This document shows, in pieces, positions 5,993-22,414 of a stretch of DNA of 64,000 nucleotides (position 1 is its first letter; every line of letters starts with the position of its first letter). The position numbers and the translations under genes were made by a program. Source of the stretch: a virus (Duplodnaviria; Caudoviricetes). The notes below the pieces were generated by a model. The model was not told where the DNA came from and searched no databases. It saw nothing but the letters and a program-made list of their open reading frames with translations. The stretch is taken from the IMG/VR virus record IMGVR_UViG_3300047551_002158, one strand, 5' to 3'.

Positions 5993-6027
5993 ACTGGTAG
6001 AATAAGTACACTCATTAAGGTTTGGTT

Positions 6028-7023
6028 ATGGATTTTGTTGATGTTAAATACATCAATTTGATTTCTGGAAGATTTCATAAGTTCAAAAAAATAAAACATA
6101 ATCTTTATAATTTTCGTTGCCCAATCTGTGGAGATTCGCAAAAGAATAAAAATAAGGCAAGGGGATATCTCTATCAAGTAAAAAACAATACAAACTTTAA
6201 GTGTCATAATTGTGGTATCAATATATCTTTTAATAACTTTTTAAAACAAATTGATATTACGATTCATAAGCAATATACCTTTGAAAAATTTAAAGAAGGT
6301 CATAGTGGTAAAAACTTTACTGCAGAAGAACCTCAGTTTAATTTTCAGAAACCAGACTTTTTCACAAAACGTGAAAATTCGGAAAATGTGAAAAAGTTGG
6401 GTTTACCGAAAGCGTTAACAAATCCTAACGCAAAAAAGTATCTGGAAAGTAGAAAATTAAATCCAGATAACTATTATTACACCGAAAAATTTAAAGAGTG
6501 GACTAATTCTCTTCGACCAACATTCGACAATACAAATCAAGATGAACCAAGGATTATTATTCCTTTGTTTTATCAAAATAAGTTAGTCGGATTTCAGGGA
6601 AGAGCACTTGGTCCCAGTAAGGTAAAGTACATTACTATAATGCTTGATGATGACGCACCAAAAATTTATGGTCTTGATGAAGTCAAAAAAAGTGAAACTG
6701 TCTACATCACAGAAGGTCCCTTTGACTCAACATTCATTCGCAACGCGATTGCTCTTTGTGGAGCTGATGGCGATCTTGATAAGTGGAATATTGGCAGGCG
6801 TGTTTGGATTTATGATAACGAACCACGTAATGCAGAAATCACCAACAGGATCGCAAAGCGTATTGATGAAGGAGAACAAGTTGTAATTTGGCCTTCTACA
6901 ATATCCGAAAAGGATATTAATGATATGGTTTTATCTGGACTGAATGTTCAAGATGTGATAGAATCAAATACTTACTCTGGTTTAGAAGCAAAACTTAAAT
7001 TTACTACCTGGAAGAAAATATGA
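6028..7023 (+). CDS. gp61: DNA primase (T4 gp61-like)
   Basis: Zn finger RCPICGDS...KCHNCG; TOPRIM motifs EGPFDS and YDNEPRN; TTGACA-N17-TAGAAT promoter at about 5975-6003. Confidence 0.95.
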   Translation: MDFVDVKYINLISGRFHKFKKIKHNLYNFRCPICGDSQKNKNKARGYLYQVKNNTNFKCHNCGINISFNNFLKQIDITIHKQYTFEKFKEGHSGKNFTAEEPQFNFQKPDFFTKRENSENVKKLGLPKALTNPNAKKYLESRKLNPDNYYYTEKFKEWTNSLRPTFDNTNQDEPRIIIPLFYQNKLVGFQGRALGPSKVKYITIMLDDDAPKIYGLDEVKKSETVYITEGPFDSTFIRNAIALCGADGDLDKWNIGRRVWIYDNEPRNAEITNRIAKRIDEGEQVVIWPSTISEKDINDMVLSGLNVQDVIESNTYSGLEAKLKFTTWKKI

Positions 7024-9317
7024 GCAACGGTACAAAAGTTAAAAAGCGTGATGGTCGAATTGAGTCTCTTGACCTGGAAAAGATGCACTTGATGGTTGAA
7101 GAGGCGTGTAAGGGTCTTGCAGGCGTCTCTGCGAGTCAAGTTGAGATGACATCTGGTATTCAGTTTTATGATGGTATCACCACTGCAGAGATTCAGGAGA
7201 TTCTGATTCGATCTGCTTCTGACCTGATCGATCTTGATCACCCTAATTATCAGTTTGTTGCTGCCCGTCTGCTTCTTTTTGCAGTTCGTAAGCAACTTTA
7301 TGGAAAGATGAAAGAACTTCCTCATCTTGAGCAGCACATTTATAACTGTGTTAATCAGGAAGTTTATGATAATGATATTTACAGCAAGTACTCAAAGGAA
7401 GAGATTGATAAGGCAAACTCTTTTATTGATCACGATAGAGATTATCTCTTTACTTACGCTGGACTTCGCCAGGTTGTTGATAAGTATTTGGTTCAGGATC
7501 GCAGTTCAGGTGGAGTATATGAAACTCCGCAGTTCATGTATATGATGATTGCTCTGACTATCTTTGCAGAGTATCCAAAAGAAACAAGAATGTCATATGT
7601 CAAGAGGTATTATGACGCAATCTCCAAACACAAAATCAACATCCCTACCCCCATTATGGCAGGCGTTAGGACACCACTTAGACAATTCGCTAGCTGTGTT
7701 CTTGTTGATGTTGATGACACCCTCGATAGCATCTTTAGTTCTGATATGGCTATTGGCAGATACGTTGCACAAAGGGCGGGAATCGGTATCAACGCAGGTC
7801 GCATCAGGGGTATCAACAGCAAAATCAGAGGTGGAGAAGTTCAACATACAGGTGTTGTCCCTTTCCTCAAAAAGTTTGAAGCAACTGTCCGATGCTGCAC
7901 TCAGAATGGCATCCGTGGTGGATCAGCAACTGTCCACTTCCCAATCTGGCACCAAGAAATAGAAGACATTCTTGTTCTTAAAAACAACAAGGGAACGGAA
8001 GATAATCGTGTCCGTAAACTTGATTATTCTATCCAAATTAGTAAGTTGTTTTATGAAAGATTTATTCAAGACGGTGAGATCACGCTTTTCTCTCCACATG
8101 ATGTACCTGGACTTTATGATTCTTTCGGACTCCCTGAGTTTGACGATCTCTATGTTTCGTATGAAAAAGATTCGTCCATTCCGAAAAAAACTATTAAAGC
8201 ACAAGAACTCATCCTTAACCTTCTTAAAGAACGTGCGGAAACAGGTCGTATCTACCTTATGAATATTGACCATTGCAATTCTCACTCTTCATTTAAGGAT
8301 AAAGTTAATATGAGCAATCTCTGTCAAGAGATTACTCTTCCTACTGATCCTATTCAGCATATTGATGATACTCATGGAGAAATTGCTCTGTGTATTCTTT
8401 CTGCCATTAACGTGGGCAAAGTTAAATCTGATGAAGAACTTGAGGATCTTTGTGATCTTTCTGTTCGTGGTTTGGATGAGTTGATCGACTATCAGAAATA
8501 CCCCGTAGAGGCGGCAGAAATCGCCACGAAGGCACGTCGTTCTCTTGGCATAGGATTTATTGGTCTTGCTCACTATTTGGCAAAACTTGGTTTTGATTAT
8601 GATTCTCAAGAGGCGTGGGATGCTGTTCATGGACTTTCAGAATCATTCCAATATTATCTTTTGAAAGCATCTAATCAACTTGCTAAAGAAAAGGGATATT
8701 GTGAATACTTTGGTCGTACCAAGTATGCTGATGGTATTCTTCCAATTGACACTTACAAAAAAGATGTAGACGAAATTTCATCTATCACACTTCAACATGA
8801 TTGGGAAAATCTTAGAGCATCCATCTTGGCTCACGGTCTCAGGCACTCAACATTGTCCGCACAGATGCCATCGGAGAGTAGTTCCGTTGTGTCAAATGCG
8901 ACAAATGGAATCGAACCTCCCCGTGGTTTCCTGTCCGTTAAGAAATCGAAGAAGGGCCCTCTCAAGCAGATTGTCCCTCAATATCAAACTCTTAAGAACA
9001 ACTATACGCTTCTTTGGGATATGGAGTCCAATCGTGGTTACATTAATATTGTTGCTTTGATGCAGAAGTTCTTTGATCAAGCGATTTCTGGAAACTGGTC
9101 TTATAATCCAGAAAATTATCAAGATAATGAAGTTCCTGTATCAGTAATGGCAAATGACTTTTTGACTACATACAAGTACGGGTGGAAAACTTCTTATTAC
9201 CAAAACACTTATGATATTAAGACTGATGAGGTAGTAGAAGAAAAACCCAATCTTCAAGATTTGTTAAGTGAGTTAAGTTCAGTAGAGGAGGGAGAGTGTG
9301 AATCCTGTGCAGTTTAA
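7020..9317 (+). CDS. nrdA: class Ia ribonucleotide reductase alpha subunit
   Basis: ATP cone (VKKRDG), ASCVL, SNLCQEIT, TSYYQN and C-terminal CESC all intact; no intein or intron. Confidence 0.98.
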   Translation: MSNGTKVKKRDGRIESLDLEKMHLMVEEACKGLAGVSASQVEMTSGIQFYDGITTAEIQEILIRSASDLIDLDHPNYQFVAARLLLFAVRKQLYGKMKELPHLEQHIYNCVNQEVYDNDIYSKYSKEEIDKANSFIDHDRDYLFTYAGLRQVVDKYLVQDRSSGGVYETPQFMYMMIALTIFAEYPKETRMSYVKRYYDAISKHKINIPTPIMAGVRTPLRQFASCVLVDVDDTLDSIFSSDMAIGRYVAQRAGIGINAGRIRGINSKIRGGEVQHTGVVPFLKKFEATVRCCTQNGIRGGSATVHFPIWHQEIEDILVLKNNKGTEDNRVRKLDYSIQISKLFYERFIQDGEITLFSPHDVPGLYDSFGLPEFDDLYVSYEKDSSIPKKTIKAQELILNLLKERAETGRIYLMNIDHCNSHSSFKDKVNMSNLCQEITLPTDPIQHIDDTHGEIALCILSAINVGKVKSDEELEDLCDLSVRGLDELIDYQKYPVEAAEIATKARRSLGIGFIGLAHYLAKLGFDYDSQEAWDAVHGLSESFQYYLLKASNQLAKEKGYCEYFGRTKYADGILPIDTYKKDVDEISSITLQHDWENLRASILAHGLRHSTLSAQMPSESSSVVSNATNGIEPPRGFLSVKKSKKGPLKQIVPQYQTLKNNYTLLWDMESNRGYINIVALMQKFFDQAISGNWSYNPENYQDNEVPVSVMANDFLTTYKYGWKTSYYQNTYDIKTDEVVEEKPNLQDLLSELSSVEEGECESCAV

Positions 9318-10488
9318 GATTTCTTCAACGGAAGAACCCCAAACAAATATTAAAGGAATGACCGTTTTTAACACTGAAAAAGTTGATACCAAAAAACAAC
9401 CAATGTTTTTTGGAAAACCTCTTGGAGTTCAAAGGTATGATTCATACAAATATCCAATCTTCGACAAACTGACTACTCAACAACTTGGATACTTCTGGAG
9501 ACCCGAAGAGGTGTCTCTCCAGAAGGATCGTGGCGATTATCAGACACTTCGCCCAGAGCAAAAGCATATCTATACTTCTAATCTGAAGTATCAGATTATG
9601 CTTGATTCTGTTCAGGGTCGTGGTCCTGGCATGGCATTTATTCCATACTGTTCACTTCCTGAACTGGAAGCGTGTATGGAAGTGTGGGGATTTATGGAAA
9701 TGATTCACTCACGCTCATACACATACATCATCAAAAACGTTTATTCAGATCCATCTGAGGTGTTTGATACTATCATTGGAGATGAGCGTATTCTGGAACG
9801 TGCTAAGAGTGTTACAGAGTCTTATGATGACTTTATTCAATCAGCACAACAATATGGTGTGTCCGATACTTGGATGCATAGACTTGAGGGAGTATCATAC
9901 GCAAAGGAATCACTCAACGATGTCAAACGAAAACTGTACAGAGCAGTCGCAAACGTTAATATTCTTGAAGGTATTCGCTTCTACGTTAGTTTTGCTTGTA
10001 GTTTCGCCTTTGGTGAACTTAAGCTTATGGAAGGATCCGCTAAAATCATTAGTCTCATCGCAAGAGACGAAAACCAACACTTAGCACTTACTCAGAACAT
10101 TCTGAATAAGTGGAAAGAAGGTGATGATCCTGAAATGAAGCAGATTGCAAAAGAAGAAGAAGAGTGGGTCTATAAAATGTTTGATCGTGCTGTAAACGAA
10201 GAGAAGAAATGGGCAGATTACCTGTTCAAAGATGGCAGCATGATTGGACTGAATGATAAACTTCTTCAGCAATATGTTGAATGGATTGCTAACCGTAGAC
10301 TGAAAGCAATAGGACTAAAACCACAGTATGATATTTCAGCAAACAATAATCCACTTCCTTGGACACAACACTGGATTTCTTCCAAAGGTCTTCAGGTTGC
10401 TCCGCAGCAAACTCAAGTGCAGTCTTATGTGGTTGGTGGAATAAAACAAGATGTCAAAAAAGACACATTTAGTGGTTTTAAACTTTAA
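9298..10488 (+). CDS. nrdB: class Ia ribonucleotide reductase beta subunit with an atypical Gln-rich tail
   Basis: FWRPEEV, EMIHSRSY, EGIRFY and DENQH motifs present; the tail reads VAPQQTQVQSY. Confidence 0.97.
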   Translation: MNPVQFKISSTEEPQTNIKGMTVFNTEKVDTKKQPMFFGKPLGVQRYDSYKYPIFDKLTTQQLGYFWRPEEVSLQKDRGDYQTLRPEQKHIYTSNLKYQIMLDSVQGRGPGMAFIPYCSLPELEACMEVWGFMEMIHSRSYTYIIKNVYSDPSEVFDTIIGDERILERAKSVTESYDDFIQSAQQYGVSDTWMHRLEGVSYAKESLNDVKRKLYRAVANVNILEGIRFYVSFACSFAFGELKLMEGSAKIISLIARDENQHLALTQNILNKWKEGDDPEMKQIAKEEEEWVYKMFDRAVNEEKKWADYLFKDGSMIGLNDKLLQQYVEWIANRRLKAIGLKPQYDISANNNPLPWTQHWISSKGLQVAPQQTQVQSYVVGGIKQDVKKDTFSGFKL

Positions 10489-10493
10489 TTGAC

Positions 10494-10548
10494 TTTAAGA
10501 CTGAAATAGTGTATTATATAAATAATAATAGGTAAGTTCAGTCTTAAA
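10494..10548 (+). promoter_or_regulatory. inverted repeat enclosing a T4-type late promoter, abutting the endonuclease start codon
   Basis: TTTAAGACTGAA (10494-10505) and TTCAGTCTTAAA (10537-10548) flank TATAAATA (10517-10524). Confidence 0.8.
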
Positions 10549-11163
10549 ATGAATAATTATATTCTTTACTATTACTTAAGGGAGGACTTTAGTTCTCCCT
10601 TTTATGTTGGTTATGGAAGACCAAGAAGAATTAATTCCAGACACTCCAGGAGAAATGGTGCTGAAATATTACCACCAAGAGAAAGAAGATGGATTGTAAA
10701 ATCTGGATTAACTAAAGAAGAAGCAATAGAACTTGAGATAAAACATATAGCACTCTGGAAAAGAGAATGTGATGGTGGGGTTTTGTTAAATCAAAATCTT
10801 GGTGGTGAAGGAAAACCTGGAGGACAGAGAACTAAAGGATTTAGTGGAAGGAAACATAGTGAAGAAGCAAAGAAAAGAATAAGTGAAAAAGCTGCTGGCA
10901 AGAATAATCCAAGATATGGTGTTAAATTATCACAAGAGACAAGAAATAAGATAAGTCAAAACAGAACACCAAAGTTTGGTAAAGATAATCCAAACTCTAA
11001 AACTTGGAAGATTGTTTCTCCAGAAAATAAAGAGTACATTATTACTGGAGCATTAAAAGAGTTTTGTAAGTCTCAAAATATTTCATATGCAACGATGCAC
11101 GCAGCAATTCTTTACGATAGAAAAGGGCCAAGAAGAAATGGATGGAGTATTGAGAAAGTTTAG
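10549..11163 (+). CDS. free-standing GIY-YIG (Seg-like) homing endonuclease with NUMOD3 repeats
   Basis: YILYYY...FYVGYG, LLNQNLGGEG, GRKHSEEAKKRISE, GKNNPRYG. Confidence 0.88.
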   Translation: MNNYILYYYLREDFSSPFYVGYGRPRRINSRHSRRNGAEILPPRERRWIVKSGLTKEEAIELEIKHIALWKRECDGGVLLNQNLGGEGKPGGQRTKGFSGRKHSEEAKKRISEKAAGKNNPRYGVKLSQETRNKISQNRTPKFGKDNPNSKTWKIVSPENKEYIITGALKEFCKSQNISYATMHAAILYDRKGPRRNGWSIEKV

Positions 11164-11551
11164 AATATCACTACCAGAAGATGAGTGTGTGATAAAACTT
11201 CAGGAGTATTGTAAGTTCTCTCATACTTTGTTAAAAGTTCCTGTAGTTTCTAAACCTTTATGTGCCGACGCAAACTGCCACAATAATGTTAATCATTATG
11301 TGAATACTTATGGTGGAGAAAAGATAAGTGGATATTATCTAATCACCGATGTTGATGATGAAACTTATGGATGTGCGATATATCATAGTATTTGGAAAAA
11401 TACTTACGGAGATTTGATAGATATAACTCCATTTGATGATGGTAGAGAATATAATATGTTCTCTGTGCTAGATGCTATAGATTATTACTCTGGAGTTGCT
11501 TATGATGGAAAAGTTTATAGAATATTAGAACCAGGACTTAATGTTGTTTAA
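11138..11551 (+). CDS. putative papain/transglutaminase-like Cys-His-Asp enzyme (candidate Gln deamidase)
   Basis: NCHNNV (C47), IYHSIW (H83), LIDITP (D95); the likely ATG overlaps the last codons of the endonuclease. The fold is inferred by eye. Confidence 0.5.
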   Translation: MDGVLRKFRISLPEDECVIKLQEYCKFSHTLLKVPVVSKPLCADANCHNNVNHYVNTYGGEKISGYYLITDVDDETYGCAIYHSIWKNTYGDLIDITPFDDGREYNMFSVLDAIDYYSGVAYDGKVYRILEPGLNVV

Positions 11552-11580
11552 ATTATAAATAACTAAAAAGTATTTGTAAA

Positions 11581-12123
11581 ATGAACGCACAAGATTTTCG
11601 TAGTCTTCAAGAAGCATATTTGGAAGTTTATAATGACTTGGATGAAGGTGCTTCGGAAGACGTTGCTGCTAGATCCGAAAAACTTGCAAAACAAAGAAAG
11701 GGGCAAACACCTCAAAGAAAAGCAATGTATCAGGGACTTGCACTTAAAGCAAGAATTCGTGCTTCTGGAGGAAATCCTGGAGATAAATCACAGGGACATC
11801 CTTTAAGGAGAGCATCTAATAGACCTATTCACCCCCACGATAGTAAGTATGGTAGATCTGGTTTAACTCAATCTAAAAGAGATGAAAGAAGAGATATAGA
11901 TGCCGCAACTCATGGTGAGTATAGTGATGGTCCTGGAACTGTAACAAAAAATCCAAAAAAACTTCGTAAGCAAAAAGCACTTGGAGAACTTGGAGAACAA
12001 GCAGACCTCTACGACATCATTCTCTCACACCTTCTTGATGAAGGATATGCCGAAACACCAGAAGCAGCAGAAGTCATTATGGTTAATATGAGTGAGGAGT
12101 GGAGAAACTCCATTCTTGGTTAA
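11581..12123 (+). CDS. cyanophage modular hypothetical protein (MNAQDFRSLQEAY family)
   Basis: Characteristic N-terminus and C-terminal DLYDIILSHLLDEGYA module; TATAAATA upstream. Confidence 0.7.
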   Translation: MNAQDFRSLQEAYLEVYNDLDEGASEDVAARSEKLAKQRKGQTPQRKAMYQGLALKARIRASGGNPGDKSQGHPLRRASNRPIHPHDSKYGRSGLTQSKRDERRDIDAATHGEYSDGPGTVTKNPKKLRKQKALGELGEQADLYDIILSHLLDEGYAETPEAAEVIMVNMSEEWRNSILG

Positions 12124-12142
12124 TTTACTTTTTTGATTTATT

Positions 12143-12292
12143 ATGTTACCAAAAATACTTTCTCAGGATTCAAACTATGATGAGTGGTGTGAACAAGAAA
12201 TTCTGAATGCTTATAAAGAAGCAGCAGAATGTGATGAATTTATGTTTGGAGATTATGACTTTTGTAGAGAATGGTTAGGTACAAATAACTAA
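12143..12292 (+). CDS. 49-aa acidic hypothetical protein
   Basis: MLPKILSQDSNYDEWCEQEIL..., read manually. Confidence 0.6.
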   Translation: MLPKILSQDSNYDEWCEQEILNAYKEAAECDEFMFGDYDFCREWLGTNN

Positions 12293-12330
12293 TTTCGTAT
12301 AGATAGAGGAGATCACACTCCTCTTTTTTA

Positions 12331-12492
12331 ATGTCTAAAAATCAGTTAACTAAAGATGAATTTAAAGTTCGTGTTTTAAAATTAAAAAATAATCTTTATA
12401 ACGAACACGTCAGACACGATATGGATATGAAAGGACTTGCCCATAAATATCTGAATGAAGTCCTTGATATTATTGATGAGTATAGATATTGA
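12331..12492 (+). CDS. 53-aa hypothetical protein
   Basis: MSKNQLTKDEFKVRVLKLK..., read manually; overlaps the next gene. Confidence 0.65.
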   Translation: MSKNQLTKDEFKVRVLKLKNNLYNEHVRHDMDMKGLAHKYLNEVLDIIDEYRY

Positions 12493-12919
12493 CTACGAAA
12501 ACCCTTGGATTTATAATGGAAGTCCCTTTATAAGTTCTGATATAGATGACCACTATGGATTTGTTTATTTGATAGAAAACAAACTAAATGGTCGAAAATA
12601 TATTGGAAGAAAATACTTTTGGCAGTTTAGAACACCTAAAGGTAAAAAAAGAAAGGTAAAATCAGAATCTAATTGGAAGGATTACTATGGGTCTTGTCCG
12701 GAACTTAAAGAAGACATTGATAAATTGGGCAGAGAGAATTTTAGTCGAACTATCCTATCATTACATAAAACAAAGGGCAAAACAAACTTTGAGGAGACCA
12801 GACGACTCTTTCTCAATGATGTCCTCACCGAATCTCTTGACAACGGAGGACCAGCCTGGTACAATAGTAACATCCTCAACAGGTACTTCCGAAAAGATTA
12901 TTATGGAAACAACGACTGA
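12476..12919 (+). CDS. conserved GIY-YIG-like nuclease family protein
   Basis: YGFVYLIEN...RKYIGRK and YYGS motifs; lacks NUMOD repeats. Confidence 0.75.
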   Translation: MSIDIDYENPWIYNGSPFISSDIDDHYGFVYLIENKLNGRKYIGRKYFWQFRTPKGKKRKVKSESNWKDYYGSCPELKEDIDKLGRENFSRTILSLHKTKGKTNFEETRRLFLNDVLTESLDNGGPAWYNSNILNRYFRKDYYGNND

Positions 12920-13076
12920 AGATATTGTCGCACATGTGAGGAGTTGGTCTCTTGATCGTGCTGCTGATATGAGTATCGATAAAGAGGATGCTCGTGCTAT
13001 TCTTGCAGAGTTTTATGAGTGGATTGAACCAGAAGATGACGAATTGGAGATCGTTTCTCTGGAACCACAAGATTGA
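12903..13076 (+). CDS. conserved hypothetical protein
   Basis: METTTEDIVAHVRSW...; the likely start is the ATG at 12903. Confidence 0.65.
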   Translation: METTTEDIVAHVRSWSLDRAADMSIDKEDARAILAEFYEWIEPEDDELEIVSLEPQD

Positions 13077-13101
13077 CAAAAACTAAATAAAAACTTATAA
13101 T
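13073..13101 (+). promoter_or_regulatory. consensus sigma70 promoter with embedded CTAAATA late element
   Basis: TTGACA (13073) - N17 - TATAAT (13096). Confidence 0.8.
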
Positions 13102-13153
13102 GTTAAAATCCCTGTTATGAGCAGGGTTTTTTATTATGAGACTTTGAGGATTG

Positions 13154-13228
13154 ATTTAGAGCCGTGGAGATTGCCCCTTGAGAGAGGGGAAGTGCGCTTT
13201 CTCTATACGGATGTAGAGTTCTATTAAA
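13154..13228 (+). ncRNA. candidate structured 5' leader (three-way junction), unassigned
   Basis: TAGAGC/GTTCTA closing stem, CCCCTT-GAGA-GAGGGG hairpin and CTCTAT/GTAGAG hairpin directly before the ATG at 13233. Confidence 0.45.
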
Positions 13229-13232
13229 TTTA

Positions 13233-13859
13233 ATGCGAAACTGCTTTACTGTAGCCCTCTTGCCTCTTCTGGCAACGGTTACAACCACAACGGCAACACT
13301 GCCATCATCTGCTACTGCTCCCCAATATTCTATTATTAAGGAGTTTGAAACAGAGAAGACAGCAATCCGCGAGGTTGCTCCCGAAAAGCCAAAAGAGAAA
13401 AGGCTAATTTGTAAAGGGTGTAATGAACATGAAAATGCTGCCCTGGCATACTTTCAGGGAATTGGTATTAAAGACAGAAACGCCCTTGCTACCATCATGG
13501 GTAATATTCGTCAGGAATCAACTTTTATTCCTAACATTTGTGAAGGTGGTAGTAGAACCTCATACTATAATTGTGGAAGAGGTTATGGTTTGATACAATT
13601 TACTTCTGCTTCTCGTTATTATGGACTGGGTGCTTTTGCTAAAAAAATAGGAGGCAATCCTTCTACTGCTGATACTCAACTTCGGTATATTACTACTGAA
13701 CCACAATGGAAGAGTATTGAAAACAGAATGAGAGTTTCTGGAAAATCTATTGATAGGTATATGAATTATGCCTACGAATGGATTGGATGGGGACACCATG
13801 GAGCAAGAACACAATATGCTTATGACTATGCTAAACGATTGGTTCTTGCTGATGTCTAA
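13233..13859 (+). CDS. phage tail-lysozyme-family cell wall hydrolase with N-terminal signal/TM segment
   Basis: ALATIMGNIRQES and GYGLIQFT motifs; hydrophobic N-terminus. Confidence 0.8.
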   Translation: MRNCFTVALLPLLATVTTTTATLPSSATAPQYSIIKEFETEKTAIREVAPEKPKEKRLICKGCNEHENAALAYFQGIGIKDRNALATIMGNIRQESTFIPNICEGGSRTSYYNCGRGYGLIQFTSASRYYGLGAFAKKIGGNPSTADTQLRYITTEPQWKSIENRMRVSGKSIDRYMNYAYEWIGWGHHGARTQYAYDYAKRLVLADV

Positions 13860-13870
13860 ATAACTTTACC

Positions 13871-13949
13871 TGACTTGCTGACACTTTTCAGGTGAGATTG
13901 GAGTGCTTCGGCACTCCTTTCTTGTATAAATAGTAATGTCAGCAAGTTA
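13871..13949 (+). promoter_or_regulatory. inverted repeat enclosing a terminator hairpin and late promoter upstream of a homing endonuclease
   Basis: TGACTTGCTGACA/TGTCAGCAAGTTA arms; GGAGTGC-TTCG-GCACTCC-TTTT at 13900-13921; TATAAATA at 13925. Confidence 0.75.
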
Positions 13950-13956
13950 GAGTAGT

Positions 13957-14607
13957 ATGAAACACTTTTATGTGTATTATTCCTATGAGGAATATGGAAG
14001 GGGATATATTGGAAAAAGAGAATGTAAATGTCTTCCAGAAGAAGATGTAAGTTATTTTGGAAGTTTCAAAGATAAAACTTTCAATCCAACTCAAAAAATA
14101 ATATTAGAAACTTTTGATAGTGTGGAGAAAGCCCTGGCAGCAGAATGTGCTCTCCACGACTTTTATGAGGTAGATAAAAATCCACACTTTGCTAATAGAG
14201 CAAAACAAACTTCTACTGGATTTTATTGTAATAAAGGTGCTGGTGAAGAAGCAAATAAGAAAAGAAGTGAGTTGATGAAAACAGAATACAATCCTATGAG
14301 TAATCTAAAACTCAAAGAGAAAGCAAGAAAAAACTTGATTAGAACTTTGAGTAATCCAGAAATGAGAAAACTAAAAAGTAGAGTTGGAAAGAAAGCACAC
14401 AATCGTCCAGAAGTAGTTGAGAACCATAGACAGGCAGCACTCAAATCTCATCAAAATCCAGAAACAAAAAGAAAACATATTGAGGCAAAACTTGGTGAGA
14501 AAAATCCTTGTTATGGTAAAAAGTGGATTACAAATGGAAATGAAAACAAATACATAAATTCTATTGATGAAGTTCCAAGTGGTTTTTGGTATGGTAGAGT
14601 TGTTTGA
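13957..14607 (+). CDS. GIY-YIG-like free-standing homing endonuclease
   Basis: FYVYYSY...GYIGKR, YFGSF, NPHFAN, C-terminal GEKNPCYGKKWITNG. Confidence 0.85.
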   Translation: MKHFYVYYSYEEYGRGYIGKRECKCLPEEDVSYFGSFKDKTFNPTQKIILETFDSVEKALAAECALHDFYEVDKNPHFANRAKQTSTGFYCNKGAGEEANKKRSELMKTEYNPMSNLKLKEKARKNLIRTLSNPEMRKLKSRVGKKAHNRPEVVENHRQAALKSHQNPETKRKHIEAKLGEKNPCYGKKWITNGNENKYINSIDEVPSGFWYGRVV

Positions 14608-19361: not shown

Positions 19362-19472
19362 CATTTGAGCACCAGTCCCTTATAATACTCTCATAGGCAG
19401 CGGGGGTCCAAACTCCGCATAAATCCTTCACCCCCCAAGCCTCTTTATAATGCTCAAACAGGGGGGTCTCTT

Positions 19473-19546
19473 GTCTCAGTAGCTCAGTTGGATAGAGCAT
19501 CTGCCTTCTAAGCAGTTGGTCGGGGGTTCAAGTCCCTCCTGAGACG
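19473..19546 (+). tRNA. trnR: tRNA-Arg(TCT)
   Basis: Cloverleaf; anticodon loop CT-TCT-AA. Confidence 0.92.
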
Positions 19547-19642
19547 TTACCACTTGCGCTGGAAAGATAAACCAGAATGCCGTGGTAAGATAGAGGGTAA
19601 GCCTCTGTTATATCCTTGAGGTATATTACGTTTACTCCATCT

Positions 19643-19725
19643 GCTTCAGTGGTGGAACGGTAGACACAGCGGACTTAGAATCCGCCGCCTTAAAAAGCGT
19701 GGAAGTTCAAATCTTCTCTGGAGCA
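19643..19725 (+). tRNA. trnL: tRNA-Leu(TAG)
   Basis: GCGGA-CT-TAG-AA-TCCGC; long variable arm. Confidence 0.92.
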
Positions 19726-19765
19726 CTTGACAATCAAACTTAAATAGTTTATGATTGTCTTATAA

Positions 19766-19836
19766 GCGGGTATGGTGTAGCGGTAACACGCCATCCTTCC
19801 AAGTTGGAATCACCGGTTCGAACCCGGTTACCCGCT
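19766..19836 (+). tRNA. trnG: tRNA-Gly(TCC)
   Basis: GCGGGTA acceptor stem; CT-TCC-AA loop. Confidence 0.92.
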
Positions 19837-19838
19837 TT

Positions 19839-19911
19839 CCTCTGCGTAGTCTATTGGTAAGGACGGGTGGACAACACACATGGAAACTGGGTTCGATTCC
19901 CAGCCAGAGGT
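19839..19911 (+). ncRNA. atypical tRNA-like RNA (non-canonical anticodon loop)
   Basis: Canonical T arm CTGGG-TTCGATT-CCCAG and D arm GTC/GAC; acceptor stem bulged; loop GACAACA lacks U33. Confidence 0.6.
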
Positions 19912-19928
19912 ACACTTACTTTTTTCTT

Positions 19929-20108
19929 ATGGAAGTTGAAATTAATTCTATAAATATCGCAAGACTTCTAAGTGAATTAGAAGGTTGCTATATCTTCACC
20001 AAGTATATGGGTTTTGAAGATGATATGAATACAATTGATGAAATGAAGAAACGTTATTATAAACTTTACTTCAAACTTTATAAGGAAGAAAAAAGTAATC
20101 CACAATAG
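19929..20108 (+). CDS. hypothetical protein within the tRNA cluster
   Basis: MEVEINSINIARLLSELEG...; its stop codon lies inside tRNA-Asn. Confidence 0.65.
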   Translation: MEVEINSINIARLLSELEGCYIFTKYMGFEDDMNTIDEMKKRYYKLYFKLYKEEKSNPQ

Positions 20109-20170
20109 CTCAGCGGTAGAGTCGGTGACTGTTAATCACTTGGTCCCTGGTTCGAATCCAGGTTGTGGAG
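20099..20170 (+). tRNA. trnN: tRNA-Asn(GTT)
   Basis: TCCACAA/TTGTGGA acceptor stem; CT-GTT-AA loop. Confidence 0.92.
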
Positions 20171-20237
20171 TTGGGTGGTCGCGGTTGACGGTTAATTACC
20201 TTCTCAACATGCGAGTGGGAATACCTACCACCCTTAA

Positions 20238-20310
20238 GGGCGATTAACTCAGCGGTCAGAGTGTCTGCTTTACACGCAGAAAGTCCACGGTTCAAATCCG
20301 TGATTGCCCA
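20238..20310 (+). tRNA. trnV: tRNA-Val(TAC)
   Basis: TCTGC-TT-TAC-AC-GCAGA. Confidence 0.92.
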
Positions 20311-20337
20311 CTTGATAAATAAAAATAAAAGAGTATA

Positions 20338-20772
20338 ATGGAAAAACTGTATAAATTACTCAGTGATGCTCAGTCATCACTTTTTGTTTTATTCCATAAA
20401 ACTTGGGCATTTCATTGGAATGTTGTTGGTGAAGATTTCACTCAACTTCATCAACTCTTTGGTGGTCAGTATGAAACTATGTTTGAAGAGATTGACCGTC
20501 TCTCAGAACATATGAGATACTTAAATGTAAAACCTCTCAGTTCTCTCTCCAGAATGCTTGAGGTAACTCAAATTAAAGAGGCAGCAAGTTCGACAGGAGC
20601 AAAGGAAATGCTTCAAGAACTTCTTGAAAACAACGAAAAGTTTTGTGAGTTGATGGTAGAAATCTCAGAAGAAGCAGAAGAACAAAAGTCATATGCTACT
20701 GCTAATTTAGTTCAAGATTTAATGGAATCGCACGGTAAATTTATTTGGATGTTAAGATCACACCTACAATGA
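20338..20772 (+). CDS. dps: Dps ferritin-like DNA-protection protein
   Basis: FHWNVVG, FTQLHQLF, IDRLSEH and HGKFIWML motifs. Confidence 0.92.
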   Translation: MEKLYKLLSDAQSSLFVLFHKTWAFHWNVVGEDFTQLHQLFGGQYETMFEEIDRLSEHMRYLNVKPLSSLSRMLEVTQIKEAASSTGAKEMLQELLENNEKFCELMVEISEEAEEQKSYATANLVQDLMESHGKFIWMLRSHLQ

Positions 20773-20787
20773 ATAGGATGAAGAACA

Positions 20788-21039
20788 ATGTTATCAATAA
20801 GATGCAAAGACTGTAATAGAGAATTAACAGGACATCATTCAAAAACAGTAAGTTGTGGATGTCCAAATATGGCAACAATTCGCGGAGATAAGATTTCAGC
20901 ACTTGACTTATCCCGTATTGTTATGTTAAACTCTTTAAAAGAAAATTCAAAAACAAACATACTGACCTCTCAAGATATTGCTTGGCAGGAAGCACGTAGA
21001 CAACGTAAAGTTCGTCGTTTGGATTTTGAGGTTCGCTGA
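20788..21039 (+). CDS. conserved Cys-rich (zinc-ribbon-like) hypothetical protein
   Basis: CKDC...SCGCPN motifs. Confidence 0.7.
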   Translation: MLSIRCKDCNRELTGHHSKTVSCGCPNMATIRGDKISALDLSRIVMLNSLKENSKTNILTSQDIAWQEARRQRKVRRLDFEVR

Positions 21040-21049
21040 ACCTCTCATT

Positions 21050-21134
21050 GGAAAGGTGGCCGAGTGGTTTAAGGCAACTGTCTTGAAAACAGTCGATGTG
21101 AGAGCATCCGGAGGTTCGAATCCTCTCCTTTCCG
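21050..21134 (+). tRNA. trnS: tRNA-Ser(TGA)
   Basis: ACTGT-CT-TGA-AA-ACAGT; long variable arm; G73. Confidence 0.93.
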
Positions 21135-21249
21135 TTTTAAGTTAAGTTACAAATTTAACAATCTCTTCAGCAGTGTTAAGAATTCAACACCAAATGTTGA
21201 CGATGAAAGTTCTGTGGATAGTATATAGTAGTACTATCATTCAAAACTT

Positions 21250-21399
21250 ATGGACCAACATACCTATAATAATTGGGTCCGTATAAAGGAAACATTTGAA
21301 AAGTCTGGTAATACAGATAATATGTTCTATAAAAGAGCAATTGAAATTGTAAAAACAAGAGTTGATCCTCTTGCTAAATTTCTTGGAGATGAAAAGTGA
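21250..21399 (+). CDS. 49-aa conserved hypothetical protein
   Basis: MDQHTYNNWVRIKETFEKSGNTDNMFYKRA..., read manually. Confidence 0.65.
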   Translation: MDQHTYNNWVRIKETFEKSGNTDNMFYKRAIEIVKTRVDPLAKFLGDEK

Positions 21400-21599
21400 T
21401 GGAACCTCAAGACGAATTTATTACACGTTCTGAAGTTCAGGAGATGATCGATGCAGCAATACGACGACACAACCGTAATGCTTCTATCATTAGCATGTGC
21501 GTCGGTTGGGTGGTTCTTGCTTTATTTGCTGAAGGACTATTAAGACTGATTGGAGTTATTCCTCCACTACTTCCTTTTCTTAAAATTACTTTAAATTAA
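21399..21599 (+). CDS. small membrane protein
   Basis: EVQEMIDAAIRRHNRNA followed by a TM helix. Confidence 0.7.
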   Translation: MEPQDEFITRSEVQEMIDAAIRRHNRNASIISMCVGWVVLALFAEGLLRLIGVIPPLLPFLKITLN

Positions 21600-21604
21600 A
21601 GAAG

Positions 21605-21694
21605 ATGAGTAATACCATATATACTGCAATAACAATCTTTGGAGTTATTGGTTATTTAATTATTTGGGCCTTGACACACGCTTATCCATCATGA
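21605..21694 (+). CDS. 29-aa membrane peptide
   Basis: MSNTIYTAITIFGVIGYLIIWALTHAYPS; ATGA-coupled to the next ORF. Confidence 0.55.
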   Translation: MSNTIYTAITIFGVIGYLIIWALTHAYPS

Positions 21695-21810
21695 TAAAAT
21701 TTGTAGAGTTCCTTCTGACCAACCAAGTGTCTTTATTCGTCATTGGTTGCCTCTTGACAATCGCTCCAGCAATGGGTATAATGATTGTACATTCAACGAA
21801 GGAAAAGTAA
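21691..21810 (+). CDS. 39-aa membrane peptide
   Basis: MIKFVEFLLTNQVSLFVIGCLLTIAPAMGIMIVH...; ends immediately before tRNA-Pro. Confidence 0.55.
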   Translation: MIKFVEFLLTNQVSLFVIGCLLTIAPAMGIMIVHSTKEK

Positions 21811-21886
21811 CGGAGTATCGCCTAACTTGGTCATGGCACCTGCTTTGGGAGCAGGAATAATTTCGGTTCAAATCCGAATACTCCGA
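21811..21886 (+). tRNA. trnP: tRNA-Pro(TGG)
   Basis: CCTGC-TT-TGG-GA-GCAGG; C1 start typical of Pro. Confidence 0.9.
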
Positions 21887-21903
21887 CTCATAAATCTCAC
21901 TTT

Positions 21904-22134
21904 ATGAAAATGAATCAGGAAATTGACGATCTTACAACGTTTACAATTGAAGAATTTCAGGCAGATTTTGACAATCTTATGAATAGAGTTGAAAGTGGAG
22001 AATCATTTATCATAAAAAGTGAGCATGGAAATGCAGTAATAGTACCATATAACGAAGTGGTGCAAGTATTTCAAGAATCTGGTATGAGTGACGAACTCAT
22101 ACGAATACACACAGACCACGAAGAAGGTTCTTGA
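21904..22134 (+). CDS. Phd/YefM-like antitoxin-fold protein
   Basis: FTIEEFQADFDNLMNRVESGESFII...AVIVPY pattern. Confidence 0.65.
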   Translation: MKMNQEIDDLTTFTIEEFQADFDNLMNRVESGESFIIKSEHGNAVIVPYNEVVQVFQESGMSDELIRIHTDHEEGS

Positions 22135-22173
22135 CAAAGGGTTCCAGGTCCTCTACAATAGATCTGGTTTTAA

Positions 22174-22261
22174 GCGAGTGAGACTTGGTAGTCAGAGAGG
22201 TCTTATAAACCTTTTCCGCCAGATTAGCGGCTTTGAGATGGTTCGAATCCATCCACTCGTA
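22174..22261 (+). tRNA. atypical tRNA with TAT anticodon and long variable arm
   Basis: GCGAGTG/CACTCGT acceptor, GAGGT-CT-TAT-AA-ACCTT, CCGC/GCGG variable arm, canonical T arm, shortened D region, A73. Confidence 0.75.
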
Positions 22262-22265
22262 CCTT

Positions 22266-22338
22266 GCTCCTTTAGCAATCTGGTGAATGCAGCGAACTCA
22301 TAATTCGCCTGAGGCGTGTTCGATCCACGCAAGGAGCA
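22266..22338 (+). tRNA. tRNA with CAT anticodon (elongator Met or Ile2)
   Basis: GCGAA-CT-CAT-AA-TTCGC; paired G1-C72, so not an initiator tRNA. Confidence 0.88.
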
Positions 22339-22414
22339 CTGGACGCTTACTAAAGCGTCCTACTTGACTTTCAAACATCACTTCTCTATAATACTAAGGT
22401 CAACAATCAAAACA

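What the first reader, a model, noticed from the sequence alone, without database searches (positions are those of the whole stretch)
10390..11551. Candidate protein-editing homing system: Gln-for-Glu NrdB tail, homing endonuclease and a putative glutamine deamidase
Seen: NrdB ends VAPQ-Q-T-Q-V-Q-SY (codons CAA, CAA, CAG at 10408-10422), where the recalled cyanophage consensus is VAPQETEVESY. Each change is a single G-to-C at codon position 1. Q371 lies six residues before Y377, so it is the E. coli E350/Y356 pair. All di-iron ligands and all NrdA catalytic residues are intact, so this does not look like decay. Known: E350 is conserved in class Ia beta and E350Q inactivates the E. coli enzyme; free-standing homing endonucleases cut conserved codons of the neighbouring gene and the carrier allele must be immune. 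Seen: right after nrdB come a GIY-YIG endonuclease and an overlapping ORF (11138..11551) with C47/H83/D95 in NCHNNV / YHSIW / IDITP context, resembling the Cys-His-Asp triad of papain/transglutaminase-fold protein-glutamine deamidases. Inference: the cassette recodes essential Glu codons to escape its own nuclease and restores Glu post-translationally; it could also work as an activation switch for RNR.
Basis: partly seen in the sequence, partly recalled or inferred. Interest (0 to 1): 0.92.

Follow-up and report, generated by a model that had tools for sequence, protein, structure and literature searches.

The report
Gln-recoded RNR tail with linked thiol enzyme
In this phage the ribonucleotide reductase small subunit encodes glutamine where an essential glutamate should be, and across hundreds of environmental phage contigs that recoding occurs only, and always, next to a gene for an undescribed Cys-His-Asp enzyme (usually riding with a homing endonuclease), which most likely converts the glutamines back to glutamates after translation.

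Summary
nrdB (9298-10488) ends VAPQ-Q-T-Q-V-Q-SY, with codons CAA, CAA and CAG at 10408-10422. Q371 aligns with E. coli E350 and Y377 with Y356.

Close relatives at 94-97% identity mostly carry ETEVE, so this is a population polymorphism. Independent contigs from other studies confirm the C bases.

- **Co-occurrence.** In 259 phage loci with enough downstream sequence, all 120 Gln-tail nrdB genes are followed by a homologue of ORF 11138-11551. None of 139 Glu-tail genes is. There are 12 well-supported independent contrasts on the NrdB tree (sign test p = 0.0005).
- **The ORF.** It belongs to an unannotated family whose only invariant residues are C47, H83 and D95. The AlphaFold2 model (pLDDT 93.5) puts Cys47 at a helix N-terminus. 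No significant match to any solved fold was found, so papain or transglutaminase membership is unproven.
- **The endonuclease.** The enzyme is usually beside or fused to a GIY-YIG endonuclease. However, Gln tracks the enzyme: lineages without the endonuclease keep both Gln and the enzyme, and one Glu-tail locus has the endonuclease without the enzyme.

Best reading (about 0.55): a dedicated tail Gln-to-Glu amidohydrolase, with the pair mobilised by homing. Deamidation itself is inferred, not shown. I found no published precedent. Interest is high.

The parts
7020..9317 (+). nrdA, class Ia RNR alpha subunit (ATP-cone, all-alpha and barrel domains). K155 and S643, the partners of beta-E350 in E. 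coli, are retained.
   Evidence: Pfam hits. Alignment to E. coli NrdA, E = 1e-274.
9298..10488 (+). nrdB, class Ia RNR beta subunit. It is intact apart from the recoded C-terminal tail.
   Evidence: PF00268 E = 4e-58. Alignment to E. coli NrdB, E = 3e-125, with ligands and Tyr conserved.
10408..10422 (+). Recoded acidic motif: CAA-ACT-CAA-GTG-CAG, giving Q371, Q373 and Q375. These lie 6, 4 and 2 residues before Tyr377 (positions -6/-4/-2). Cassette-free relatives have GAA/GAG (Glu) at all three.
   Evidence: Contigs from independent runs.
10549..11163 (+). Free-standing homing endonuclease. The N-terminal domain is GIY-YIG-like, followed by NUMOD3 and a C-terminal DNA-binding region.
   Evidence: NUMOD3 E = 6e-13. 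phrog_314 homing endonuclease. TIGR01453 partial match. N-terminal motifs align with Pfam-positive GIY-YIG relatives.
11138..11551 (+). ORF3, 137 aa. It belongs to an undescribed family with an invariant Cys47-His83-Asp95 triad and is the candidate NrdB-tail glutamine amidohydrolase. It overlaps the endonuclease gene by 26 nt.
   Evidence: Family conservation. AF2 model with pLDDT 93.5. Strict linkage to Gln-tail nrdB.
10400..11560 (+). Approximate extent of the mobile or co-converted unit: the nrdB 3' end from about the Gln codons, the endonuclease and ORF3.
   Evidence: Identity to L064 rises from about 77% in the backbone to 90-94% from about 10400. It is about 91% over ORF3 and falls to 50-60% after about 11500. 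Glu-type relatives lack 10489-11560.

Best explanation
The window carries a three-part cassette at the end of a T4-like phage class Ia RNR operon.

1. nrdB encodes Gln at the conserved acidic positions just before the radical-transfer Tyr. One of these is the equivalent of E. coli E350.
2. ORF3 belongs to a small, undescribed protein family with an invariant Cys-His-Asp triad.
3. A GIY-YIG-type homing endonuclease lies between them.

Shown: the Gln tail and the triad protein are an obligate pair across many phage lineages.

Inferred: the triad protein is a thiol amidohydrolase. It would attack the side-chain amide of the tail glutamines through a Cys47 thioester, releasing ammonia and leaving glutamate. 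This would regenerate the carboxylate needed to dock the beta tail on alpha (K155/S643) and start radical transfer.

The endonuclease is the vehicle. It spreads the enzyme gene into Glu-type phages and co-converts the adjacent nrdB 3' end. After that the recipient cannot lose the enzyme without losing RNR.
For: Co-occurrence:
- All 120 nrdB genes with Gln at position -6, -4 or -2 have an ORF3-family domain just downstream. None of 139 Glu-tail nrdB genes has one (components).
- On an NrdB tree built without the tail there are at least 21 state changes. All 12 independent, well-supported contrasts agree (p = 0.0005).
- All nine ORF3 relatives looked up (about 40-55% identical to ORF3) lie immediately after nrdB. 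Their tails are QQTQIE (two relatives), QQSEIQ, QETQKQ, QQVELS, QQTEKE, QQTQIS and QQTEVQ, so Glu-to-Gln changes recur in different combinations.

Independence from the nuclease:
- Endonuclease-free lineages keep both the Gln tail and the enzyme (L081-L084, L147, L151, L192).
- L247 has the endonuclease without the enzyme domain and has a Glu tail.

Enzyme signature:
- C47, H83 and D95 are the only invariant columns of 43 diverse members.
- The triad is intact in every complete nrdB-linked copy.
- The AF2 model (pLDDT 93.5) starts helix 47-58 at Cys47. His83 and Asp95 lie on adjacent strands.

Need for Glu:
- E350 is essential in E. coli and contacts K154 and S647 of alpha (PMC11482829, PMC8463856).
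- Both partner residues are kept in this NrdA.
- The change is always Glu to Gln, the one residue an amidase can convert back.

Binding prediction: ORF3 with NrdB residues 352-396 scored 0.49 against a best control of 0.02, a 'weak support' verdict. That mark was reached by 58 of 80 solved complexes and 2 of 110 mismatched pairs, but a score of 0.60 or under by only 7 of those 80. The partner's pLDDT was 43-48.
Against: - No biochemical evidence exists, and deamidation is inferred only from the residue change.
- The fold has no significant match to any known deamidase, papain-like or transglutaminase-like structure. The best is Z = 3.2, and Foldseek found nothing. There is no profile hit either.
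- The Gln tail and ORF3 lie within 100-700 bp of each other. Co-transfer by homing alone could produce much of the co-occurrence.
- The conserved Gln before the motif (Q370 = E. coli Q349) would have to be spared, or its conversion tolerated. That specificity is unexplained.
- More distant family members (about 30% identity) are not next to nrdB, so the family is not restricted to this substrate.
- The inactivity of E350Q is known only for E. coli. I could not retrieve the primary paper.
Confidence: 0.55

Rival explanations
1. Linkage without chemistry. The Gln codons are only a co-converted marker, or a nuclease-resistant target allele, travelling with the homing cassette. Gln-tail NrdB works unmodified in these phages. 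ORF3 is an accessory of the endonuclease or an unrelated cargo enzyme.
For: - The three parts are physically adjacent.
- 100 of 104 Gln-tail loci carry a GIY-YIG gene, and 53 are ORF3-endonuclease fusions.
- Cassette identity exceeds backbone identity.
- Distant family members occur away from nrdB.
- There is no fold match to known deamidases.
Against: - Endonuclease-free lineages retain an intact-triad ORF3 together with the Gln tail.
- L247 has the endonuclease with a Glu tail and no ORF3.
- Resistance to a nuclease could be gained by synonymous changes. Yet every change is Glu to Gln at protein-critical positions, and in varying combinations.
- E350 is essential in the close E. coli homologue, and its alpha partners are unchanged here (PMC11482829).
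Confidence: 0.2
2. ORF3 acts on the tail glutamines by transamidation rather than hydrolysis. Like a transglutaminase, it would link Gln371 to a lysine (for example alpha K155) or to a polyamine. The result would be a tethered or otherwise regulated RNR.
For: - The same linkage and triad evidence applies as for the best explanation.
- A thioester on a Gln side chain can be resolved by an amine as well as by water.
- In E. coli E350 lies next to K154 of alpha (PMC11482829).
- The weak top structural neighbours include Cys-His-Asp acyl-transfer enzymes such as PeiW, PeiP and NAT1.
Against: - The recoded positions are exactly those where relatives need Glu, so restoring Glu is the simpler reading.
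- A covalent alpha-beta link would block the tail release needed for turnover (PMC8463856).
- No lysine co-varies with the Gln state in the tails examined.
Confidence: 0.12
3. The Gln-tail NrdB is deliberately inactive or regulatory, for example a switch or a dominant-negative subunit. ORF3 would then be a protease or another regulator, not a restorer.
For: - E350 substitutions abolish radical transfer in E. coli (PMC11482829, ref. 42).
- Cys-His-Asp triads are common in proteases.
Against: - The rest of NrdB is under the same constraint as in Glu-type relatives (94-97% identity, all ligands kept).
- No second nrdB was seen in the ORF list of 6000-14000. The whole genome is not held, so a second copy elsewhere is not excluded.
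- A permanently dead RNR beta subunit would be expected to decay.
Confidence: 0.06

Closest known systems
Pup/Dop in Actinobacteria (established knowledge, not tested here)
   Same: A protein is genetically encoded with Gln where Glu is required. A dedicated enzyme encoded nearby deamidates it before it can function.
   Different: Dop is an ATP-dependent enzyme of the glutamine-synthetase fold that acts on a C-terminal Gln. Here the candidate is a 137-aa Cys-His-Asp protein acting on internal Gln of an RNR tail, and the pair is carried on a mobile endonuclease cassette.
CheD/CheB deamidation of chemoreceptor Gln to Glu (established knowledge, not tested here)
   Same: Functional Glu residues are encoded as Gln and matured by an amidohydrolase. 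CheD uses a Cys-His based site.
   Different: No sequence or significant structural similarity was found. The substrate, biology and genetic mobility all differ.
Free-standing homing endonucleases at phage nrd genes (T4 mobE and I-TevIII at nrdB; PMC2790892)
   Same: An endonuclease gene sits beside nrdB, is sporadically distributed, and spreads by gene conversion that drags flanking nrdB sequence with it.
   Different: The known cases carry no protein-modifying enzyme, and their co-converted polymorphisms do not change an essential residue. Here the co-converted segment recodes Glu350, and a linked enzyme is always present.
Papain/transglutaminase-like Cys-His-Asp amidases, such as protein-glutaminase, N-terminal Gln amidase and PeiW/PeiP
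   Same: The order Cys...His...Asp, Cys at a helix N-terminus, and His and Asp on following strands. There are also HSxW and DITP motifs that, from memory, resemble the transglutaminase core. PeiW, PeiP and NAT1 appear among the best, though weak, structural neighbours.
   Different: No significant structural or profile match (Z at most 3.2). Membership is not established. The protein is much smaller than characterised members.

Membership tests
Class Ia RNR beta subunit (NrdB) | Ribonuc_red_sm domain with the di-iron ligands, the radical Tyr, W48 and the tail Tyr356 | tested here: met
   PF00268 E = 4e-58. The alignment to E. coli NrdB shows D84, E115, H118, Y122, E204, E238, H241, W48 and Y356 equivalents all present.
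Class Ia RNR beta subunit (NrdB) | Conserved Glu at the E350 position of the tail | tested here: not met
   The encoded residue is Gln371, codon CAA at 10408-10410. All 139 cassette-free relatives have Glu.
GIY-YIG homing endonucleases | GIY-YIG catalytic domain recognised by a profile | tested here: inconclusive
   The window copy has no Pfam GIY-YIG hit. Its N-terminus aligns with the YxY / YVGxG / R / E / N motifs of relatives that do hit PF22945.
GIY-YIG homing endonucleases | NUMOD3 and C-terminal DNA-binding modules, with a sporadic, mobile distribution | tested here: met
   NUMOD3 E = 6e-13 and phrog_314. The gene is present in about 1-12% of close relatives, with cassette identity above backbone identity.
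GIY-YIG homing endonucleases | Site-specific cleavage of the cassette-free allele | not testable with these tools
   Needs a cleavage assay on Glu-type and Gln-type nrdB 3' ends.
Papain/transglutaminase-like thiol enzymes | Invariant Cys-His-Asp in that order, with Cys at a helix N-terminus and His and Asp on beta strands | tested here: met
   Conservation. In the AF2 model helix 47-58 starts at C47, H83 is in strand 78-87 and D95 is in strand 93-95. The three-dimensional geometry of the triad could not be measured because no coordinates were given.
Papain/transglutaminase-like thiol enzymes | Significant sequence-profile or structural similarity to a known member | tested here: not met
   No Pfam, NCBIfam or PDB profile hit. 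Foldseek against PDB and Swiss-Prot found nothing. The best VIA-align scores are Z = 3.2 (TglA), 2.7 (PeiW), 2.3 (PeiP) and 2.0 (NAT1), all below significance.
Protein glutamine deamidases | Conversion of protein-bound Gln to Glu | not testable with these tools
   Inferred only from the Glu-to-Gln recoding and strict linkage. The predicted ORF3-tail complex gave weak support: 0.49 against a best control of 0.02.

The most novel reading that the evidence does not exclude
A selfish homing cassette makes itself irremovable by protein editing. When it homes, it co-converts the essential Glu350-equivalent codon or codons of RNR beta to Gln. It also supplies the only enzyme that turns them back into Glu, so any phage that deletes the cassette loses dNTP synthesis. 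This would be a protein-level analogue of RNA-editing dependency, used as an addiction module by a homing endonuclease. The enzyme family would be a new class of site-specific protein glutamine deamidase.
Probability: 0.35. Interest if true: 0.95.

Novelty: categorically new. Interest (0 to 1): 0.9.

Why it matters
- **RNR biology.** If the inference holds, a central enzyme of DNA precursor synthesis is made in an inactive, genetically recoded form in many environmental phages. It would need a dedicated post-translational Gln-to-Glu conversion.
- **A new enzyme family.** Close relatives alone form about 120 clusters at 90% identity, some with over 100 member sequences. The family would gain a defined substrate, and it offers a compact, possibly sequence-specific protein deamidase.
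- **Mobile-element evolution.** It would show a new strategy for homing elements: hitch-hiking with, or enforcing dependence on, a protein-editing enzyme.
- **RNR mechanism.** It gives RNR enzymologists a natural E350Q system for studying tail gating.
- **Value if deamidation is wrong.** The all-or-none association (120/0/0/139) between a recoded essential residue and an unknown enzyme would still demand an explanation.

Tried and rejected
- **Assembly error or single-genome oddity: rejected.** More than 100 independent contigs carry the recoding, and exact contigs come from other studies.
- **Zinc-binding or DNA-binding domain for ORF3: rejected.** The other cysteines (C17, C25, C42, C79) are not conserved across the family. 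Only C47, H83 and D95 are.
- **ORF3 as a frameshifted C-terminus of the endonuclease: rejected.** The endonuclease already has its NUMOD3 and C-terminal DNA-binding region. The 26-nt overlap is conserved in relatives, and ORF3 also occurs alone.
- **tRNA-based recoding of CAA/CAG: no support.** The window's ten tRNAs include no Gln or Glu species. The conserved Gln before the motif uses the same codons.
- **A second nrdB elsewhere in the genome: could not be checked.** No genome is held.
- **Fold assignment: nothing significant.** Two models were searched against PDB (Foldseek and VIA-align 2). AFDB and Atlas returned only uncharacterised proteins.
- **Language-model look-alikes:** only weak YunG leads.
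- **The search for related loci with the diverse alignment: failed.** There was no conserved stretch to search with.
- **Cultured phages: essentially absent.** tblastn of ORF3 against 50,697 phage records gave one weak hit.
- **The primary E350 mutagenesis paper: not held**.
- **Complex prediction:** only 'weak support'. It is cited as such and not relied on.
Full report
**What is in the window.** The region lies in a T4-like cyanomyovirus-type genome. The nearest cultured relatives are Synechococcus phages at about 78% nucleotide identity in nrdB. Near-identical DNA is held by freshwater metagenomes from at least 11 studies.

The gene order on the + strand is as follows.

| Gene | Coordinates | Evidence |
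|---|---|---|
| nrdA | 7020-9317 | ATP-cone, all-alpha and barrel domains |
| nrdB | 9298-10488 | PF00268 |
| Endonuclease ORF, 204 aa | 10549-11163 | NUMOD3, phrog_314 homing endonuclease, partial TIGR01453 |
| ORF3, 137 aa | 11138-11551 | No Pfam or NCBIfam hit; weak phrog_37148 hit of unknown function |

ORF3 overlaps the endonuclease ORF by 26 nt.

**Checking the observation.**
- The nrdB tail reads VAPQ-Q-T-Q-V-Q-S-Y, with CAA, CAA and CAG at 10408-10422.
- HMMER alignment to E. coli NrdB places Q371 on E350, Q373 on E352, Q375 on S354 and Y377 on Y356. The iron ligands and the radical Tyr are intact.
- NrdA keeps all catalytic and pathway residues. It also keeps K155 and S643, the equivalents of the K154 and S647 that hydrogen-bond E350 in the E. 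coli holoenzyme (PMC11482829).
- E350 and Y356 are described as the two tail residues essential for turnover (PMC8463856). Substitution of E350 disrupts radical transfer (PMC11482829, citing Ravichandran et al. 2017, which I could not retrieve).

**It is a polymorphism, not an error.**
- Among the 120 nearest NrdB proteins (94-97% identical), 103 carry Glu tails, 94 of them VAPQETEVESY. Fourteen carry QQTQVQ and one carries the hybrid QETQVQ.
- Contigs from two other studies reproduce the Gln codons exactly. Glu-type branches (CAG GAA ACC GAA GTA GAA) occur in the same samples.

**The key result: strict co-occurrence with ORF3.**
- Of 80 IMG/VR loci with close NrdB relatives, exactly the three Gln-tail loci carry the endonuclease and ORF3. 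The 77 Glu-tail loci do not. This was re-checked with a broad family HMM, whose only extra hit was spurious.
- A DNA pattern for A-P-Q-Q-T-Q-x3-Y returned 119 loci, of which 111 are NrdB tails. All 104 with enough downstream sequence have an ORF3-family domain just after nrdB.
- A second, unbiased sample took the 80 closest relatives of a different NrdB clade. It gave 79 Glu-tail loci without the domain and one Gln-tail locus with it.
- Pooled, the counts are Gln with domain 120, Gln without 0, Glu with 0, Glu without 139.
- On an NrdB tree built without the tail, the state changes at least 21 times. All 12 well-supported independent contrasts agree (sign test p = 0.0005).

**Divergent lineages tell the same story.** I looked up nine ORF3 relatives about 40-55% identical to ORF3. 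All lie directly after nrdB, in different phage backbones. Their NrdB tails are:
- QQTQIE (two lineages)
- QQSEIQ
- QETQKQ
- QQVELS
- QQTEKE
- QQTQIS
- QQTEVQ

The Glu-to-Gln change therefore recurs in different combinations. Position -6 (E350) is Gln in eight of nine. The hybrid allele QETQVQ also carries the cassette.

**What ORF3 is.**
- Close relatives form about 120 clusters at 90% identity. An exhaustive search finds 187 clusters at 50% identity with E below 0.001.
- In 43 diverse members the only invariant columns are C47, H83 and D95. In 142 representatives they are conserved in 141, 141 and 139.
- The other cysteines are not conserved, which argues against a zinc site.
- Every complete nrdB-linked copy has the triad.
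- With a deep alignment, AlphaFold2 gives pLDDT 93.5. Helix 47-58 begins at Cys47, and His83 and Asp95 lie on the following strands. That is the layout of papain-like and transglutaminase-like thiol enzymes.
- No search finds a significant structural relative, however. Foldseek against PDB and Swiss-Prot is empty. The best VIA-align scores are Z = 3.2 (TglA), 2.7 (PeiW), 2.3 (PeiP) and 2.0 (NAT1).
- AFDB and the ESM Atlas return only uncharacterised proteins.

I therefore call ORF3 a Cys-His-Asp enzyme of an undescribed family. I do not call it a member of the transglutaminase superfamily.

**Relation to the endonuclease.** The 104 Gln-tail loci fall into four arrangements.

| Arrangement | Loci |
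|---|---|
| ORF3 fused to a GIY-YIG endonuclease | 53 |
| Endonuclease between nrdB and ORF3 (as in this window) | 43 |
| ORF3 followed by the endonuclease | 4 |
| ORF3 alone | 4 |

- Fusions to GIY-YIG, or to DUF723/treble-clef modules, are confirmed by Pfam.
- The window's own endonuclease lacks a Pfam GIY-YIG hit. Its N-terminus nevertheless aligns with the motifs of relatives that have one.
- Against carrier L064, identity rises from about 77% in nrdA and nrdB to 90-94% from about 10400. It is about 91% over ORF3 and drops to 50-60% downstream. This is expected if the cassette and the nrdB 3' end move together.

Two facts separate the Gln state from the nuclease.
- Endonuclease-free lineages keep an intact ORF3 and the Gln tail.
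- L247 has a closely related endonuclease (E = 3e-83 to the endonuclease half of a fusion) right after a nrdB with ordinary GAA codons, and it has no ORF3 domain.

This is a single locus, but it argues against the idea that the Gln codons exist mainly to protect the carrier from its own nuclease.

**Mechanism.**

Shown:
- The recoding is real.
- The pairing with ORF3 is strict.
- The triad is invariant.
- The alpha-subunit partner residues are unchanged.
- The cassette is mobile.

Inferred:
- ORF3 hydrolyses the tail Gln side-chain amide or amides to Glu, restoring a functional tail.
- The inference rests on the exclusive Glu-to-Gln nature of the changes. Synonymous changes would suffice for DNA-level purposes.
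- It also rests on the essentiality of E350 in a close homologue and on the chemistry typical of Cys-His-Asp enzymes.
- A predicted ORF3-tail complex passed its controls only in the weak band: 0.49 against 0.02.

Open problems:
- How Q370 (E. coli Q349) would be spared.
- Physical linkage alone could create much of the association.

The rivals are linkage without chemistry, transamidation instead of hydrolysis, and a deliberately inactive subunit. They are scored in the Rival explanations section.

**Comparison with what is known.** Proteins encoded with Gln and matured to Glu are known: Pup by Dop, and chemoreceptors by CheD or CheB (established knowledge, not tested here). Homing endonucleases beside nrdB are also known, as with T4 mobE (PMC2790892). 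I found no report of a recoded RNR tail, of this enzyme family, or of a homing cassette carrying a protein-modifying enzyme matched to a recoded neighbour.

**Verdict.** That idea is a linked enzyme that restores Glu. The nuclease-immunity rationale is not favoured, and fold membership and activity remain unproven.

Noticed in passing
L247:1365-2157: A Glu-tail nrdB (QETEISSY, GAA codons) is followed 37 nt later by a 252-aa GIY-YIG endonuclease. That endonuclease is closely related to the endonuclease half of the ORF3 fusions, but there is no ORF3 domain. It is the only endonuclease-positive, ORF3-negative case seen.
   Followed up: partly
L294:30-2283 (protein P0038): A hybrid tail QETQVQSY (Glu at -6, Gln at -4 and -2) with the endonuclease and ORF3 downstream. 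It could be a recombination junction inside the tail or a reversion.
   Followed up: partly
window 12455-12919 and 13957-14607: Two further homing-endonuclease-like ORFs lie within 3 kb. One matches the SegE_GIY-YIG domain (E = 2e-53), although its PHROG is labelled 'NAD synthetase'. The other is a NUMOD3/phrog_314-like ORF. The region is rich in mobile endonucleases.
   Followed up: no
L091:3861-5477, L092:1128-2744 (P0244); P0243: Here the ORF3-like domain is fused to DUF723/treble-clef zinc-finger modules instead of GIY-YIG. It still lies directly after a Gln-tail nrdB (VSPQQTEVQSY). A second endonuclease type may therefore have captured the same enzyme.
   Followed up: partly
L212:537-1133, L213:1621-2265: Distant family members (about 30% identity, about 200 aa) sit among small unknown phage-like genes with no nrdB nearby. 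One lies next to a YunG-like gene. The wider family probably has other substrates.
   Followed up: no
window 10942-11201: A 262-nt contig from a freshwater RNA-Seq library (run X18, 3 mismatches) covers the endonuclease 3' end and the ORF3 start. It hints at transcription, but DNA carry-over is not excluded.
   Followed up: no
window 19472-22339: A cluster of ten tRNA genes (Arg, Leu x2, Gly, Asn, Val, Ser, Pro, Ile, Met). None is for Gln or Glu.
   Followed up: no
window 9298-9358: The listed nrdB ORF starts at a GTG that overlaps the end of nrdA. The alignment to E. coli NrdB begins at residue 21-22, where there is an ATG (9358), so the true start may be 20 codons later.
   Followed up: no
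window 10300-11600 (runs X1-X17): Near-identical copies occur in freshwater and freshwater-sediment metagenomes, although the nearest cultured phages infect marine Synechococcus. Glu-type and Gln-type alleles co-occur in the same samples.
   Followed up: partly
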